A DNA stretch of 47,473 bases from a virus. Taxonomy: Duplodnaviria > Heunggongvirae > Uroviricota > Caudoviricetes. Of the stretch, positions 8,922 through 44,166 are shown piece by piece. The notes beneath the pieces are model-generated. The model was not told the DNA's origin, did no database searches, and saw only the letters and a list, made by a program, of their open reading frames with translations. The position numbers were made by a program, and so were the translations under genes. The number at the start of each line of letters is the position of its first letter. The stretch's first letter is position 1. Location of the stretch: IMG/VR virus record IMGVR_UViG_2585427964_000002; one strand, 5' to 3'.

Positions 8922-9953
8922 ATGTATATTACTTCCAAACTGCGGCGTATCGCGTTACGCTACTCAAGATTATTCCAACATGAGTCCTCCTATATGGCAC
9001 GAAAATTAATAATATTCGGCAACGGTCTTGGTATGGCTTTAGATCCTGCTCATTTTTCCTTAGACAGGGCGTTGGCAGAAATTTGGCATCGATCCAATTT
9101 CTTAAACGATGTCCATAAGCAACTTATCGAACGTTGTCTTCAGCGGCAAGGTCCACCGGCAGGGGAACATGAGTTGGATACCCTTCACCAAGCTATCACA
9201 TATTGTAAGGCTCTTGCGCAAATTGGAGAAGGAAACGAGCATTGGCTTACTGACGATGGACTAAACTTCCCCGAAATCACCGCCACTTATATCCACAAAG
9301 TTGCAACTAGTTTGCATAATTACGGTGAAGGGTTGCCGCAAAGATTCGAAAATGCGCTAGTGGAATTTGTAAAAAATACACGCACTCATATTGCGACATT
9401 AAACTATGACAAATTATTATACAACTCATTCATAGATAATGATATATTCAGCGGGTATGATGGGTATCTGGTTGATGGGATGTTAGGCCACGGATTTTCC
9501 GCCGAAGCGCTCGAACGGAAATATAATCGTAGGTTTGGTTATTATTTGCATTTGCATGGCTCACCACTATTTGTTAATCAGGGTGAGACCGTCTTAAAAC
9601 TTTCACGTTCTCAACTTACGGTTGACAGGGATGAGCCTAGCGAACATATAGTGTTAACGCATATAAAAAGGAAACCGTCAGTTATAGCAGCATCTAATGT
9701 TCTTTCTACGTACTGGGATTATTTGCAGTTTGCATTATTTGAATCAGAAGAAATAATACTGTTTGGTTATTCTGGCCTCGATGAACACCTTAACCTGCTT
9801 ATTCGGCCTTACCTAACCTCTAAGCATTTAAGAGTAATTGAGTGGAGCGGTGCAGGTGAACAAAATGACCGTGAGGCATACTGGCAATATTTGTTAGGAC
9901 GGGAAGTTACTGTAACCAGGTTGGATAACATCACTGACTTCATCAATTGGTAG
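8922..9953 (+). CDS. SIR2-like (SIR2_2/DHS-like NAD-binding fold) protein, candidate NADase defence effector
   Basis: Ordered motifs of the defence-associated SIR2 family: Rossmann strand plus glycine loop KLIIFGNGLGMAL, catalytic-Asn motif ATLNYDKLLY, catalytic-His motif YLHLHGSPLF, and ILFGYSGLDEH. Alternative start at ATG 8994; neither start has a strong Shine-Dalgarno. Visibly AT-rich relative to flanking phage genes. Confidence 0.6.
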   Translation: MYITSKLRRIALRYSRLFQHESSYMARKLIIFGNGLGMALDPAHFSLDRALAEIWHRSNFLNDVHKQLIERCLQRQGPPAGEHELDTLHQAITYCKALAQIGEGNEHWLTDDGLNFPEITATYIHKVATSLHNYGEGLPQRFENALVEFVKNTRTHIATLNYDKLLYNSFIDNDIFSGYDGYLVDGMLGHGFSAEALERKYNRRFGYYLHLHGSPLFVNQGETVLKLSRSQLTVDRDEPSEHIVLTHIKRKPSVIAASNVLSTYWDYLQFALFESEEIILFGYSGLDEHLNLLIRPYLTSKHLRVIEWSGAGEQNDREAYWQYLLGREVTVTRLDNITDFINW

Positions 9954-9959
9954 CACAAT

Positions 9960-9997
9960 GCGAAGTTAGTATCGAGAGTATACGGTTCTAACTTCGC
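9960..9997 (+). other. Perfect 10-bp inverted repeat (GCGAAGTTAG...CTAACTTCGC) forming a stem-loop 7 nt after the SIR2-like stop
   Basis: Read directly; the 18-nt loop contains a GTATAC palindrome. No downstream T-run, so not a canonical intrinsic terminator. Confidence 0.5.
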
Positions 9998-10123
9998 TGA
10001 GCTGAAATATACACTTTACCTTCATTTCATTCTTTAGATGAACACCCAATAGTTGTATTGAATCATTGAAGAGGCAGTCTCATATTTATCAGTATTGGTA
10101 TACGTCCAATACAGGAGGTTATC

Positions 10124-10231
10124 GTGTTGGCTCTGACGTGTGTGTTGGCTATTGTGGCTGTGCTGGTAATTTATTGTCTTGTTGTTGCTTTCATGGAGCG
10201 ATTTTCTGATTGGCGAGGTAGAGGGAGTTAA
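10124..10231 (+). CDS. 35-codon single-pass membrane peptide (type I toxin-like)
   Basis: AGGAGG Shine-Dalgarno 5 nt upstream of GTG. Translation MLALTCVLAIVAVLVIYCLVVAFMERFSDWRGRGS: 22-residue hydrophobic helix plus charged tail. Below the 60-aa ORF-track cutoff. Confidence 0.4.
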   Translation: MLALTCVLAIVAVLVIYCLVVAFMERFSDWRGRGS

Positions 10232-10413
10232 GTAAAATTGCTGCGGGTGCTTGAGGCTATCTGCCTCGGGCATGAACACCAACGGCAGATAGAGAAAAGC
10301 CCCAGTTAACATTACGCGTCCTGCAAGACGCTTAACATTAATCTGAGGCCAATTTCATGCTAGACACATGTAGGTTAGCCTCTTACGTGCCGAAAGGCAA
10401 GGAGAAGCAGGCT

Positions 10414-10569
10414 ATGAAGCAGCAAAAGGCGATGTTAATCGCCCTGATCGTCATCTGTTTAACCGTCATAGTGACGGCACTGGTAACGAGGAAAGACCTC
10501 TGCGAGGTACGAATCCGAACCGGCCAGACGGAGGTCGCTGTCTTCACAGCTTACGAACCTGAGGAGTAA
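10414..10569 (+). CDS. hokD: Hok/Gef-family membrane toxin HokD (RelF)
   Basis: 51-codon ORF MKQQKAMLIALIVICLTVIVTALVTRKDLCEVRIRTGQTEVAVFTAYEPEE matching recalled HokD. An in-frame upstream extension (track ORF from 10357, 70 aa) is mok-like. Confidence 0.85.
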   Translation: MKQQKAMLIALIVICLTVIVTALVTRKDLCEVRIRTGQTEVAVFTAYEPEE

Positions 10570-10639
10570 GAGACCCGGCGAGGGAGAAATCCCTCGCCAC
10601 CTCTGATGTGGCAGGCATCCTCAACGCACCCGCACTTAA

Positions 10640-10668
10640 CCCGCTTCGGCGGGTTTTTGTTTTTATTT
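10640..10668 (+). terminator. Intrinsic terminator downstream of hokD
   Basis: CCCGCTTCGGCGGG hairpin followed by a T-run. Confidence 0.6.
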
Positions 10669-13781: not shown

Positions 13782-13857
13782 GGCCCTTTAGCTCAGTGGT
13801 GAGAGCGAGCGACTCATAATCGCCAGGTCGCTGGTTCAAATCCAGCAAGGGCCACCA
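13782..13857 (+). tRNA. tRNA with CAU anticodon (Ile2/Met type, ileX/ileZ-like)
   Basis: 76-nt cloverleaf GGCCCTTTAGCTCAGTGGTGAGAGCGAGCGACTCATAATCGCCAGGTCGCTGGTTCAAATCCAGCAAGGGCCACCA; anticodon loop CTCATAA; encoded CCA end. Confidence 0.85.
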
Positions 13858-13957: not shown

Positions 13958-14034
13958 GCGTTGTTAGCTCAGCCGGACAGAGCAATTGCCTTCTAAGCAA
14001 TCGGTCACTGGTTCGAATCCAGTACAGCGCGCCA
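13958..14034 (+). tRNA. tRNA-Arg (UCU anticodon)
   Basis: 77-nt cloverleaf GCGTTGTTAGCTCAGCCGGACAGAGCAATTGCCTTCTAAGCAATCGGTCACTGGTTCGAATCCAGTACAGCGCGCCA; anticodon TCT; T-arm GGTTCGAATCC. Confidence 0.85.
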
Positions 14035-14498: not shown

Positions 14499-15031
14499 AT
14501 ACATATCTGGATTATCACCTGTTACGGTAAAAAGTGATTGCTTACTGTTTTTGTGAATGGCATTGCAGCAGCCGGATAATGTCAGTGCTGGCTGACGGTG
14601 TGCTGGTGGCGGGTGTGGTGGTTGTTGCTTTCCCGTTGCTGAAAAAGAAAACGCCAGACTGTTAGCCGGGTATCAGTTAGCGGGAGAAATTTTTAAATAC
14701 TTCACAATTCAGGCGGTTGACTGTTCTCTGGTTTGCGGGGAGTTTGTTAAAAGAAACTGGCATGGTGAATCCCCCTGTGCGGAGGGGCAATCAGCGAGTA
14801 GGTATATGGGATAATCGCGGATTCAGGTGCTGGTACTGAATTCACCGGGAGGCACCCGGCACCATGCACTTCAATAGATTCTCTCCACATTATGGATATT
14901 CTTTCAGAATATCCCACGCAGACTTTGTGTAAATGTTAACAAATGTGCGTTTTATTTGATCTGATTCGCTGTTTGAGCGTCCAAAACAACGGTATATATA
15001 ATCCTTTACTATATGACATATGTGAGGAAAA

Positions 15032-17813: not shown

Positions 17814-18175
17814 ATTAATATTAAATCGGATTATTTTTAGCGCTGAATGTGAAATTTAAATAAAAAGGACTCTTCCATGAGTCAAAATCCTTGAAATCTT
17901 AAGGGTAAGATAAAAGGTCATTAGACAGAATGACACGTTTTATTAATAAATAAAGCTATTGTTTCATTCGTGTGTTTTTCTTTACAAAAGTAATCCTTGC
18001 TATGGTTGGTTAATCATGCGTTAATGGTGTTCTGGTTTGTTACAAAATTATCTGAAGCAGTCATTGTTATAATTTTATTATTTGTACCTCTTGAGATTTC
18101 CTTGTTGGTTTTTCTCTCTGATATTTTTTTCGGACCATTCTGCCCAAGGGCTAACTTCTTCAAAAGGTAATAATG

Positions 18176-18388
18176 ATGTCTAACAAAATGACTGGTTTAG
18201 TGAAATGGTTTAACCCTGAAAAAGGTTTTGGTTTCATCACGCCGAAAGATGGTAGCAAAGATGTGTTTGTGCATTTCTCAGCTATTCAGAGCAACGATTT
18301 CAAAACGTTAACTGAGAATCAGGAAGTCGAATTTGGTATTGAGAACGGACCTAAAGGCCCTGCAGCTGTTCATGTAGTGGCACTTTGA
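18176..18388 (+). CDS. cspI: Cold-shock protein, CspA family
   Basis: [23 protein letters not shown]...[12 protein letters not shown]1/RNP2 cold-shock-domain motifs. Long AT-rich 5' UTR upstream. Symbol assigned by position (Rz-csp-ynfN-gnsB), moderate certainty. Confidence 0.8.
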
Positions 18389-18593
18389 GGTAGAAAATAT
18401 TACAAACCATATTCACTTTAGATGCCCGTGTTGCCATGGTTCTCAGTATAGAACATCATCTTTTGATGTTTCTGACAGAAATCCTTTCGGGGCAAAATGT
18501 ATCTTTTGTAAATCAATGATGATTACATTTGATAATATTTCACAATACTTAAATGTTAGCCATCTGTCGTTAGATTTAAGAAAGTGAAAATGA

Positions 18594-43591: not shown

Positions 43592-44166
43592 TGGCATTCA
43601 GAATGAGTGAACAACCACGGACCATAAAAATTTATAATCTGCTGGCAGGAACTAATGAATTTATTGGTGAAGGTGACGCATATATTCCGCCTCATACAGG
43701 TCTGCCAGCAAACAGTTCCTATATTGCACCGCCAGATATTCCGGCTGGCTTCGTGGCTGTTTTCAACAGTGATGAGGCATCGTGGCATCTCGTTGAAGAT
43801 CATCGGGGTAAAACCGTCTATGACGTGGCTTCCGGCGACGCGTTATTTATTTCTGAACTTGGCCCATTACCGGAAAATGTCACCTGGTTATCCCCGGAAG
43901 GGGAGTTTCAGAAGTGGAACGGCACAGCCTGGGTGAAGGATACGGAAGCAGAAAAACTGTTCCGGATCCGGGAGGCGGAAGAAACAAAAAACAACCTGAT
44001 GCAGGTAGCCAGTGAGCATATTGCGCCGCTTCAGGATGCTGCAGATCTGGAAATTGCAACGGAGGAAGAAATCTCGTTGCTGGAAGCATGGAAAAAGTAT
44101 CGGGTATTGCTGAACCGTGTTGATACGTCAACTGCACAGGATATTGAATGGCCAGCACTGCCGTAG
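43591..44166 (+). CDS. tfa: Tail fiber assembly protein Tfa
   Basis: 191 aa directly downstream of the distal fiber ORF; Tfa-family-like C-terminus. Confidence 0.8.

What the first reader, a model, noticed from the sequence alone, without database searches (positions are those of the whole stretch)
10100..10243. Unannotated 35-codon hydrophobic peptide gene with a consensus Shine-Dalgarno between the SIR2-like gene and hokD
AGGAGG lies 5 nt upstream of GTG at 10124, and the frame encodes MLALTCVLAIVAVLVIYCLVVAFMERFSDWRGRGS, a single 22-residue TM helix with a charged tail. That is the architecture of type I toxins and of small membrane effectors of defence systems. It is missed by the 60-aa ORF track and is overlapped only by a low-complexity antisense ORF (10034-10312). 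It may be a second toxin next to hokD, or the membrane partner of the SIR2-like protein.
Basis: seen in the sequence. Interest (0 to 1): 0.55.

Follow-up and report, generated by a model that had tools for sequence, protein, structure and literature searches.

The report
Conserved prophage membrane microprotein gene beside hok
The small open reading frame is very likely a real gene for a one-helix membrane microprotein that sits just upstream of the hok toxin gene in many E. coli prophages; it is not tied to the neighbouring SIR2 gene, nothing shows it is a toxin, and its function is unknown.

Summary

It is very likely a real gene. In 31 distinct DNA variants of the ORF (from 59 distinct locus sequences) the 29-codon core has no stop and no indel. 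Substitutions are synonymous or hydrophobic-conservative, and pairwise dN/dS is 0.1-0.45. A diverged 34-aa subfamily (52-64% nt identity, synonymous sites near saturation) holds the same position upstream of hok in O157:H7 prophages. One member (ECs_5710 = XECs145) has published ribosome-profiling support.

The ancestral product is 29 aa (MLVLKCALAIAAVMAIYCLAVVLMDRLSD). The window allele is 35 aa only because an 11-bp deletion removed the stop, so translation runs into the hok promoter. Part of the "charged tail", and the 92-aa antisense ORF, are by-products of that deletion.

- **SIR2 partner:** rejected. There are 39 different upstream contexts in 121 loci.
- **hok linkage:** strong. About 96% of loci have hok downstream.
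- **Type I toxin:** unsupported. No toxin-family match, no conserved antisense RNA or structured leader, and the homologue is well translated in growing lysogens.

The family is confined to Escherichia/Shigella, is present in at least 38% of complete E. coli genomes, and is named only "hypothetical" or "membrane protein". Interest is modest.

The parts
10044..10057 (+). Left edge of the block shared with other prophages. To the left lies the SIR2 cargo cassette.
   Evidence: Alignments: homology to loci with other upstream genes begins at ACCCAATAG.
10058..10063 (+). Putative -35 hexamer TTGAAT of the small gene's own promoter (inferred).
   Evidence: TTGA is invariant in diverged lineages (TTGAAT/TTGAAG/TTGAGT) and lies 17 bp from CATATT. 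It scores 8 of 12, below the threshold of the consensus scan. It is absent in E. albertii L024.
10081..10086 (+). Putative -10 hexamer CATATT (inferred). The transcription start would be near 10092-10094.
   Evidence: CATATT(T/C)ATCAG is invariant in the blastn-derived loci L002-L009, which were not selected on it, while the surrounding flank diverges by 22-38%.
10092..10112 (+). Hairpin GTATTGG-TATACGT-CCAATAC in the short 5' leader. It is specific to the window allele.
   Evidence: Read from the sequence. Two of the seven pairs are mismatched in the common allele. The SD is not sequestered.
10113..10118 (+). Shine-Dalgarno sequence AGGAGG, 5 nt before the start codon.
   Evidence: AGGAG is present in all blastn-derived relatives. 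The 34-aa subfamily has GGGAGGG/AAGGAGGG.
10124..10210 (+). Ancestral 29-codon core of the microprotein gene (GTG start): one transmembrane helix plus the M-E-R-F-S-D end.
   Evidence: No stop or indel in 31 distinct ORF sequences from 59 distinct locus sequences. 22 synonymous, 30 non-synonymous and 0 stop changes, the best of six frames. P(synonymous) = 0.011 and P(conservative replacement) = 0.0004. dN/dS is 0.10-0.45. Against the 34-aa subfamily pS = 0.62-0.89 and pN = 0.19-0.35.
10211..10231 (+). Allele-specific read-through tail WRGRGS plus TAA. An 11-bp deletion with its junction inside 10209-10213 removed the normal TGA.
   Evidence: relatives read TCTGATTGATTTTATATTGGCG where the window reads TCTGATTGGCG. 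The deletion lies between ATTG direct repeats. Only 16 of 5426 genomes carry this allele.
10210..10238 (+). hok promoter (TTGGCG, 17 bp, TAAAAT). It overlaps the extended 3' end of the small ORF.
10245..10419 (+). hok mRNA leader, the target region of the Sok antisense RNA.
   Evidence: Rfam RF01794, 115 bits, E = 6e-27.
10242..10250 (+). 5' arm of the hok mRNA fold-back pairing; its partner is 10626-10634. It marks the hok mRNA 5' end, about 12 nt after the small ORF's stop codon.
   Evidence: Inverted repeat I10, 9 of 9 complementary. The fold-back inhibition element is established knowledge of hok mRNAs.
10414..10569 (+). hokD-type toxin gene, 51 aa. The in-frame mok-like ORF starts at 10357.
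   Evidence: Pfam HOK_GEF 1.2e-23 and PHROG 251 2.8e-33.
10638..10655 (+). Intrinsic terminator of the hok mRNA.
8922..9953 (+). SIR2-like cargo gene. It is a neighbour, not a partner, of the small gene.
   Evidence: Pfam SIR2_2 7.5e-6. Only weak PADLOC SIR2 hits.
9960..9997 (+). Hairpin that closes the SIR2 cassette.
   Evidence: Inverted repeat I3.

Best explanation
**What it is.** Positions 10124-10231 are a real protein-coding gene. It belongs to an uncharacterised Escherichia/Shigella prophage microprotein family with a 29-aa GTG-start subfamily and a 34-aa ATG-start subfamily (ECs_5710 / XECs145). The family's core is ALAxxAVxx[IV]YCLxVxLM[DE]R[LMF], a single helix long enough to span the inner membrane.

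**Where it sits.** The gene lies in the conserved backbone on the right-hand edge of a cargo (defence/moron) hotspot in the nin region of lambdoid prophages, immediately upstream of the hok/sok locus. Its normal stop codon lies 8 nt before the hok -35 hexamer.

**The window allele.** An 11-bp slippage deletion removed that stop. The product is therefore 35 aa, and its last six codons are read out of the hok promoter.

**How it most likely works.**
- Shown: the reading frame is under purifying selection, and a sister gene is ribosome-covered in growing lysogens.
- Inferred: it is transcribed in the lysogen from its own weak sigma-70 promoter (TTGAAT, 17 bp, CATATT), and by read-through of the early right operon during lytic growth. 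It is translated efficiently from AGGAGG/GTG and inserts as a single-span helix.
- Inferred: it acts as a non-lethal membrane microprotein by helix-helix contact through the invariant Y-C-L face and the LM(D/E)R membrane-edge motif.
- Guess: the partner is unknown. Because the gene travels with hok in about 96% of loci and in three replicon types, Hok or Hok's membrane target is the leading candidate.

It is not a component of the SIR2 system.
For: **Reading frame.** It is intact in every complete variant, namely 31 distinct ORF sequences from 59 distinct locus sequences. These were retrieved by a pattern that lies outside the ORF body.

**Substitution pattern.**
- 22 synonymous, 30 non-synonymous and 0 stop changes in this frame. 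It has the most synonymous changes and the smallest hydropathy shift of all six frames.
- Against random placement of the same changes, P = 0.011 for the synonymous count and P = 0.0004 for the hydropathy shift.
- Pairwise dN/dS is 0.10-0.45. For example, pCP301 versus L141 gives dS 1.18 and dN 0.12.

**Second subfamily.** It has 52-64% nt identity over the shared 23 codons. Synonymous sites are near saturation (pS 0.62-0.89) while pN is 0.19-0.35. It sits in the same place, about 245 nt before the hok start codon.

**Translation.** XECs145 is the Sakai Sp6 homologue, read from an upstream in-frame start (confirmed). Its RIBOseq coverage is 0.99 and its RCV 4.35 in LB. The mean RCV of short annotated genes in that study is 1.55, and the calling threshold is 0.25 (PMC5597208 S2 Table).

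**Helix.** The 19-residue hydropathy maximum is 2.7-3.1, and AlphaFold2 gives a helix at residues 2-32 with pLDDT 90.

**Context.** There are 39 upstream contexts, and hok lies downstream in about 112 of 117 loci. The sORF-hok pair also occurs on an IncY phage-plasmid and, with a decayed hok, on Shigella pINV.

**Window allele still constrained.** All 9 replacements within residues 2-24 stay hydrophobic or small (A, V, L, F, T). That has P of about 0.01 under random non-synonymous change.
Against: - No experiment bears on the 29/35-aa subfamily itself. The ribosome-profiling evidence comes from a 46-54% identical relative that is multi-copy in O157 genomes, and the published ORF call was longer (54 aa).
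- The promoter is only a sub-threshold consensus match (8 of 12). Its -35 is missing in E. albertii L024, and the 34-aa subfamily shows no such promoter.
- The window lineage has a raised dN (0.20-0.25; one comparison gives dN/dS 1.18) plus a frame-extending deletion. This particular allele could therefore be under relaxed constraint.
- The counts are small (87 nt), and the variants are related to each other, so the P values are approximate.
- The proposed partner (Hok) is a guess from linkage. hok loci without the gene exist (R1, VT2-Sakai hokW, chromosomal hok genes), and so do copies of the gene without hok (L039, L100, L128, L142).
Confidence: 0.6

Rival explanations
1. It is a second type I toxin. 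The peptide would depolarise or permeabilise the inner membrane, and would normally be kept silent by an antisense or nearby small RNA that has not been recognised.
For: - It has the right size and architecture: a hydrophobic helix with a short charged end.
- It sits next to a proven type I locus.
- In the commonest allele a minus-strand promoter-like site (TTAACT, 18 bp, TAAAAT) lies at the 3' end of the ORF and could give an antisense RNA.
- RNAalifold pairs the SD with the invariant CUUUCUG at the end of the ORF.
Against: - No hit to Hok, Ldr, Ibs, TisB, Fst or any other toxin model, and no BLASTP similarity to Hok.
- No Rfam RNA on or beside the ORF.
- The antisense -10 is not conserved (TATAAA, TGTGAA, TATGAA or TATGTA in different alleles) and is deleted in the window, which nevertheless keeps the ORF.
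- The leader is about 30 nt and its fold is no better than shuffled sequence (z = -0.33).
- The SD/anti-SD pairing has three G-U pairs, almost no covariation, and is absent from the 34-aa subfamily.
- The homologue is strongly ribosome-covered in growing cells.
Confidence: 0.15
2. The ORF matters in cis rather than through its product. Transcription and translation from its promoter would run into the hok promoter 8 nt downstream. That would tune hok by promoter occlusion, or by making 5'-extended hok transcripts that cannot form the 5'-3' fold-back.
For: - The spacing between the stop codon and the hok -35 is tight and conserved, and no terminator lies between the ORF and hok.
- Linkage to hok is about 96%.
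- The hok mRNA 5' end is defined by pairing at 10242-10250, so an extension could disturb it.
Against: - The amino-acid sequence, not merely the act of translation, is conserved. dN/dS is about 0.1-0.3, and the core motif survives between subfamilies whose DNA is 52-64% identical.
- The gene persists where hok is absent or truncated.
- In the 34-aa subfamily the distance to the hok promoter is longer and includes a 20-bp palindrome.
Confidence: 0.1
3. It is not a functional gene. The open frame would be a by-product of T-rich DNA conserved for other reasons, such as promoter elements or a recombination boundary of the cargo hotspot.
For: - Most variants are closely related, so the absence of stops alone is weak evidence (null P = 0.58).
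- The window allele has lost its stop and has a raised dN.
- PGAP usually does not call the ORF.
Against: - There is an excess of synonymous and of hydrophobic-conservative changes, and this is the best of six frames.
- dS reaches about 1 with dN about 0.1.
- There is protein-level conservation across subfamilies.
- The start codon is conserved (GTG or ATG) and so is the SD.
- A homologue has RIBOseq support.
Confidence: 0.08
4. It is the membrane effector or partner of the upstream SIR2-like defence protein.
For: - It is adjacent and on the same strand in the window, and in the 6 of 121 sampled loci that have SIR2 upstream, including E. albertii L024.
- The diverged window allele is found only with the SIR2 cassette: all 16 genomes that carry it also match the cassette's 3' flank.
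Against: - There are 39 different upstream contexts.
- Homology to the other loci starts 90 nt after the SIR2 stop, beyond a hairpin.
- In E. albertii the same SIR2 cassette abuts a different, ordinary 29-aa allele at a different junction.
- No PADLOC system pairs a SIR2 protein with such a peptide.
Confidence: 0.03

Closest known systems
ECs_5710 / XECs145 (E. coli O157:H7 Sakai prophage Sp6; WP_001278460.1 family, 34 aa)
   Same: - It shares the core ALAxxAVxxxYCLxVxLM[DE]R.
- It has the same strand and the same position upstream of a prophage hok.
- It has a strong SD.
- It is a single hydrophobic helix.
- It is uncharacterised.
   Different: - It has an ATG start and an acidic N-terminal extension (MSDDISLxMEG).
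- It ends in GN rather than SD.
- It is preceded by another tiny ORF rather than by its own promoter-like site.
- A 20-bp palindrome lies before the hok promoter.
- Identity to the 29-aa form is 46-54%.
WP_000960667.1 and similar 29-aa 'hypothetical' or 'membrane protein' entries (E. coli, E. albertii, Shigella pINV)
   Same: It is the same subfamily: GTG (or ATG) start, 29 codons, and the same flanks.
   Different: The window allele differs at 11-13 of 29 residues, all conservative changes. It is 6 residues longer because of the 11-bp deletion.
Type I toxins (Hok/Gef, Ldr, Ibs, ShoB, TisB, ZorO, Fst)
   Same: It is a hydrophobic single-helix peptide of similar size with a short polar end. It is carried on a mobile element beside hok/sok.
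   Different: - It has no sequence membership in any of these families.
- No antitoxin RNA was found.
- Its leader is short and unstructured.
- A homologue is well translated in growing cells.
- Toxicity is untested.
Small regulatory inner-membrane proteins of E. coli (for example MgtS, AcrZ, MgrB) and phage-encoded single-span morons
   Same: It shares their size range and single-helix build. It appears to be expressed in ordinary growth. The presumed mode of action is helix-helix binding to a larger membrane protein.
   Different: There is no homology, no known partner and no phenotype. The comparison is one of kind only, drawn from general knowledge.

Membership tests
Prophage hok-proximal microprotein family (WP_000960667.1 / ECs_5710 / XECs145) | Core motif ALAxxAVxx[IV]YCLxVxLM[DE]R[LMF] within one hydrophobic helix. 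| tested here: met
   The window has VLAIVAVLVIYCLVVAFMERF (alignment A5). The profile built from that alignment recovers family members not used to build it at E = 1e-12 to 1e-14.
Prophage hok-proximal microprotein family (WP_000960667.1 / ECs_5710 / XECs145) | Same strand as a prophage hok/sok locus and immediately upstream of it. | tested here: met
   The stop at 10229-10231 lies inside the hok promoter 10210-10238. About 112 of 117 related loci have hok downstream.
Prophage hok-proximal microprotein family (WP_000960667.1 / ECs_5710 / XECs145) | Reading frame under purifying selection. | tested here: met
   Selection looks weaker on the window lineage (dN 0.20-0.25).
Prophage hok-proximal microprotein family (WP_000960667.1 / ECs_5710 / XECs145) | Translated in vivo. 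| not testable with these tools
   Evidence exists only for the 34-aa relative: RIBOseq RCV 4.35 and coverage 0.99 (PMC5597208).
Type I toxin-antitoxin toxin | Small hydrophobic peptide with one membrane helix. | tested here: met
Type I toxin-antitoxin toxin | Sequence membership in a described toxin family. | tested here: not met
   No Pfam, NCBIfam, PHROG or PADLOC hit at E <= 1 beyond chance matches to membrane segments. BLASTP against Hok finds nothing.
Type I toxin-antitoxin toxin | Antisense or adjacent small RNA antitoxin with its own promoter and terminator. | tested here: inconclusive
   No Rfam family matches. One minus-strand promoter-like site exists in the common allele, but it is not conserved and is deleted in the window. 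No transcript data were available.
Type I toxin-antitoxin toxin | Structured mRNA leader that hides the ribosome-binding site, with translation silent in growing cells. | tested here: not met
   The leader is about 30 nt and the fold z-score is -0.33. The consensus fold has almost no covariation. The homologue has RCV 4.35 in LB.
Type I toxin-antitoxin toxin | Growth arrest or killing on over-expression. | not testable with these tools
   This needs an induction experiment.
SIR2-based defence system with a membrane component | Conserved co-occurrence of the SIR2 gene and the peptide gene. | tested here: not met
   SIR2 lies upstream in only 6 of 121 loci, among 39 different upstream contexts.
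hok/sok locus (is the ORF part of it?) | Lies within the hok mRNA, between the 5' fold-back element and the terminator. | tested here: not met
   The hok mRNA starts at about 10243-10245, and the ORF ends at 10231. hok loci on R1-type plasmids and VT2-Sakai lack the ORF.

The most novel reading that the evidence does not exclude
The microprotein and Hok could form a two-peptide membrane module. The small protein would be a protein-level modulator of Hok: either an immunity factor or brake that binds Hok in the membrane, or a co-toxin. It would be co-inherited with hok/sok across lambdoid prophages, an IncY phage-plasmid and Shigella pINV. That would add a protein layer to a system thought to be controlled only by RNA.
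Probability: 0.12. Interest if true: 0.6.

Novelty: new member of a known kind. Interest (0 to 1): 0.3.

Why it matters
The 29-aa form of this gene is present in 2057 of 5426 complete E. coli genomes, and a 34-aa form in a further 732, yet annotation almost always skips the 29-aa form. It is a good example of a real, selected microprotein hidden by length cut-offs.

Three practical points follow.
- The gene marks the fixed right-hand border of a prophage cargo hotspot that holds SIR2 and dozens of other inserts, which helps to delimit defence islands.
- Its constant pairing with hok gives a cheap, testable question about whether hok/sok has a protein accessory.
- It warns against reading any small hydrophobic ORF next to a defence gene as that gene's effector.

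No function is established, and relatives are already in databases and in one ribosome-profiling list. The gain is incremental.

Tried and rejected
**Protein searches that gave nothing useful**
- phmmer of the 35-aa peptide against 1.84 billion representatives returned nothing, because the query is too short for significance.
It worked once the alignment was padded with the 54-aa XECs145 reading, but found only Escherichia/Shigella 'hypothetical' or 'membrane protein' entries.
- Pfam, NCBIfam, PHROGs and PADLOC gave no family for either subfamily or for the neighbouring tiny ORF-A.

**Ideas tested and dropped**
- Distant homology to Hok, suggested by a 19-nt direct repeat between the two genes that is in frame in both (D1). 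BLASTP finds nothing, and the manual register gives 7 identities in 29 hydrophobic positions, so I treated it as chance.
- The antisense 92-aa ORF and the +1-frame 47/74-aa ORF as alternative genes. They were rejected on substitution pattern (8-15 synonymous against 35-42 non-synonymous changes, with stops) and on the frame break in relatives.
- A conserved 5' hairpin. It is specific to the window.

**Searches outside Escherichia**
- The genome contigs pattern scan gave 36 hits. Among named organisms only Escherichia and Shigella records were related, plus a few metagenome bins labelled otherwise that carry the same E. coli-type sequence. The rest were chance matches.

**Literature**
- Full-text searches for the peptide strings and WP accessions found no paper.
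- The CFT073 small-protein preprint and the Enterobacteriaceae microproteome supplements do not contain the family.
- Only the Sakai RIBOseq supplement does.
Full report
**1. The observation**

The sequence is as described. AGGAGG lies at 10113-10118, followed by the 5-nt spacer TTATC and GTG at 10124. The open frame runs to TAA at 10229-10231 and encodes MLALTCVLAIVAVLVIYCLVVAFMERFSDWRGRGS. The peptide is strongly hydrophobic: the best 19-residue window has mean Kyte-Doolittle hydropathy 3.13. AlphaFold2 models it as one helix over residues 2-32 with mean pLDDT 90. In the 16 complete E. coli genomes that carry 9960-10360 at 99.8-100% identity, nothing is annotated there.

**2. The surroundings**

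Just downstream lies a complete hok/sok locus.
- A sigma-70 promoter, TTGGCG, 17 bp, TAAAAT, at 10210-10238.
- The hok mRNA leader at 10245-10419, matching Rfam RF01794 at 115 bits.
- The 5'-3' fold-back pairing 10242-10250 with 10626-10634.
- The Hok CDS at 10414-10569, Pfam HOK_GEF 1.2e-23.
- A terminator at 10638-10655.

The small ORF therefore ends about 12 nt before the hok mRNA starts, and its last codons overlap the hok promoter. Upstream is a SIR2-like gene (8922-9953; Pfam SIR2_2 7.5e-6), closed by a hairpin at 9960-9997.

**3. Relatives, and what the ancestral gene looks like**

The block 10044-10243 has relatives in 2057 of 5426 complete E. coli genomes. It also occurs on Shigella pINV plasmids, in phages mEp460, Tritos, Evi and HannyBb, and in E. 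albertii and E. ruysiae.

In all of them the ORF has 29 codons (consensus MLVLKCALAIAAVMAIYCLAVVLMDRLSD) and stops at a TGA 8 nt before the hok -35 hexamer. The window allele lacks 11 bp: CTG[ATTGATTTTAT]ATTGGCG, a deletion between ATTG repeats. That deletion removes the TGA, so the frame runs six codons further (WRGRGS) into the hok promoter. The 35-aa length and half of the 'charged tail' are thus specific to a rare allele.

In L005 that frame is only 35 aa.

**4. Is it coding?**

I collected loci with a pattern that lies entirely upstream of the ORF body (CATATTYATCAG-N18-22-AGGAGRTT). Of the hits, 132 were related, giving 59 distinct locus sequences and 31 distinct ORF sequences. Every complete copy keeps the 29 codons, with no indel and no stop.

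Counting each variant base once gives 22 synonymous, 30 non-synonymous and 0 stop changes in the proposed frame. This frame has the most synonymous changes, and the smallest mean hydropathy shift (1.9), of all six frames. When the same numbers of transitions and transversions are placed at random, the synonymous count is reached with P = 0.011 and the hydropathy shift with P = 0.0004.

Nei-Gojobori comparisons between diverged lineages give dN/dS of 0.10-0.45. For example, pCP301 versus L141 gives dS 1.18 and dN 0.12.

A tblastn search then uncovered a second, diverged subfamily of 34 aa:
- MSDDISLVMEGALAVIAVVGVYCLVVFLMERLGN (WP_001278460.1).
- MSDDLSLAMEGALAVISVVGVYCLVVFLMDRMGN (WP_077779993.1).

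It occupies the same place, about 245 nt before the hok start codon, in O157:H7 and other STEC prophages and on an IncY phage-plasmid. It is present in 732 of 5426 genomes, with a median of 3 copies per genome. Over the 23 shared codons, DNA identity is only 52-64%. Synonymous sites are near saturation (pS 0.62-0.89) while pN is 0.19-0.35. The core ALAxxAVxx[IV]YCLxVxLM[DE]R is retained. This is the signature of a protein-coding gene.

**5. Experimental support from the literature**

Huecker et al. 2017 (PMC5597208) list XECs145 among the 465 intergenic ORFs they found translated in E. coli O157:H7 Sakai. Its sequence, MCYLSVGVKTFAGIHTKGGN-MSDDISLAMEGALAVIAVVGVYCLVVFLMDRLGN, is the 34-aa gene read from an upstream in-frame start.

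I confirmed that it maps to prophage Sp6 directly upstream of the hok gene ECs_1520. The locus is now annotated as ECs_5710, 34 aa.

| Condition | RNA RPKM | Footprint RPKM | RCV | Coverage |
|---|---|---|---|---|
| LB | 79 | 346 | 4.35 | 0.99 |
| BHI control | 121 | 150 | 1.14 | 0.84 |

The study's calling thresholds were RCV 0.25 and coverage 0.5, and the mean RCV of short annotated genes in LB was 1.55.

Caveats: this is the sister subfamily, it is multi-copy in O157 genomes, and the published ORF was called longer than the likely product.

**6. What it is linked to**

The far-upstream sequence falls into 39 different contexts among 121 loci. Examples are SIR2, DUF4145 in either orientation, an MFS transporter with GGCT, TPR/DUF262, and QueH. 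Only 6 of the 121 are SIR2. In the main family the conserved block begins at a hairpin, GTCCGCT-N10-AGCGGAC, about 170 nt upstream of the -10. In the window the SIR2 cassette reaches to 10044, and in E. albertii the same cassette reaches further and removes the -35. The gene is therefore the fixed right-hand border of a cargo hotspot, not part of the SIR2 insert.

To its right, about 112 of 117 loci have hok. That count is 106 with the same leader plus 6 with a more diverged Hok/Gef gene. The sORF-hok pair also appears outside the nin region, on an IncY plasmid between IS elements. On Shigella pINV, upstream of icsP, the hok leader is truncated but the small ORF is intact and starts with ATG.

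A few loci have the small gene without hok (L039, L100, L128, L142). Many hok loci have no small gene, for example VT2-Sakai hokW. The linkage is strong but not obligatory.

**7. Type I toxin?**

The architecture fits, but nothing else does.
- No toxin family matches, and there is no similarity to Hok.
- No Rfam RNA lies on or beside the ORF.
- The one minus-strand promoter-like site (TTAACT, 18 bp, TAAAAT in L005) varies among alleles and is deleted in the window.
- If the promoter TTGAAT (10058-10063), 17 bp, CATATT (10081-10086) is real, the leader is only about 30 nt. The fold is no better than shuffled sequence (z = -0.33).
- The consensus fold has almost no covariation. Its SD/anti-SD pairing is weak and absent from the 34-aa subfamily.
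- The homologue is well translated in growing lysogens.

Toxicity itself cannot be tested here.

**8. Most likely mechanism**

- Shown: a selected reading frame for a single hydrophobic helix, conserved SD and start codon, and a sister gene translated in lysogens.
- Inferred: expression from its own weak promoter, whose -35 and -10 are islands of invariance in an otherwise 22-38% diverged flank, and from early-operon read-through. Insertion as a single-span inner-membrane microprotein. Action through helix-helix contact using the invariant Y-C-L face and the LM(D/E)R edge.
- Guess: the partner is Hok or Hok's target, suggested only by linkage.

The window allele has more replacements than its relatives, 11-13 of 29. 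All 9 replacements within residues 2-24 remain hydrophobic or small, which has P of about 0.01 under random non-synonymous change. It is therefore probably still functional despite the extension.

**9. Novelty and verdict**

The family is confined to Escherichia/Shigella as far as these searches reach. It is already in databases as 'hypothetical' or 'membrane protein', and one member is in a published RIBOseq list. No paper discusses it.

The finding is a correct spot of a real but uncharacterised microprotein gene. Its two functional suggestions do not hold up: the SIR2-partner idea is rejected and the toxin idea is unsupported.

- Interest: 0.3.
- Novelty: a new, C-terminally extended member of a known though unstudied kind.
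- Most novel surviving reading: a protein accessory of hok/sok, with probability about 0.12.

Noticed in passing
window 10034-10312 (-): The 92-aa antisense ORF exists only because the 11-bp deletion fuses two frames. In relatives it is about 35 aa (L005 2673-2780). Phage HannyBb nevertheless annotates antisense ORFs here instead of the small gene.
   Followed up: yes
L172 2345-2428 (Sakai Sp6); also L168 about 1870-1947, L169 about 1864-1947, L166 about 1396-1480: A second family of tiny hydrophobic ORFs ('ORF-A', 24-27 aa, for example MIWPEAFAITGVAIAIDFLVYVICRWG). Its ATG overlaps the stop of the preceding gene (ATGA). It sits just upstream of the 34-aa gene. In VT2-Sakai a frame-shifted or shortened version lies directly before hokW. 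It is unannotated and has no family match.
   Followed up: partly
L172 2577-2596: A perfect 20-bp palindrome, GATATGGGAATTCCCATATC, lies between the stop of the 34-aa gene and the hok -35 in O157 prophages. It could be an operator or a hairpin. It is absent from the 29-aa subfamily.
   Followed up: no
window 8922-10043, and L024 (E. albertii): The SIR2-like cargo cassette occurs in two species with different right-hand junctions. The E. albertii junction deletes the putative -35 of the small gene. The SIR2 protein has only weak PADLOC hits (Aga_SIR2, PDC-S21; E = 1e-5 to 1e-7), so its defence-system type is unresolved.
   Followed up: partly
loci L003-L007, L022, L037, L142: about 170 nt upstream of the small gene's -10: The conserved hairpin GTCCGCT-N10-AGCGGAC marks the left edge of the backbone block. 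It is the likely boundary of the cargo hotspot, which shows 39 different inserts in 121 loci.
   Followed up: partly
L009 2572-2660 and downstream (Shigella pCP301, upstream of icsP/sopA): The pINV plasmids of Shigella and enteroinvasive E. coli keep an intact ATG-start copy of the microprotein gene, while the adjacent hok leader is truncated after about 90 nt.
   Followed up: partly
window 10578-10659 (+): There is a weak isrK-like Rfam hit (25.7 bits, E = 0.007, below the gathering score) on the 3' end and terminator of the hok mRNA. It is probably just the terminator hairpins.
   Followed up: no
window 13782-13854, 13958-14031, 14731-14921, 18019-18434, 43934-44132: Other Rfam hits above the gathering score elsewhere in the window: two tRNAs, the sRNA STnc100, a cspA-type thermoregulator leader, and IS009 RNA.
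   Followed up: no
window 10151-10169 and 10468-10486: A 19-nt direct repeat (74% identical) links the small gene and hok. It is in frame in both (IVAVLV versus IVTALV). I judged it to be chance similarity between hydrophobic segments.
   Followed up: yes
L001 3531-4601 (strain KSC1031): In one genome with the identical small-gene allele, an ISEsa1-family transposase fragment follows where hok and rem lie in the window, and no hok is annotated. The hok side of the pair may be disrupted there.
   Followed up: no
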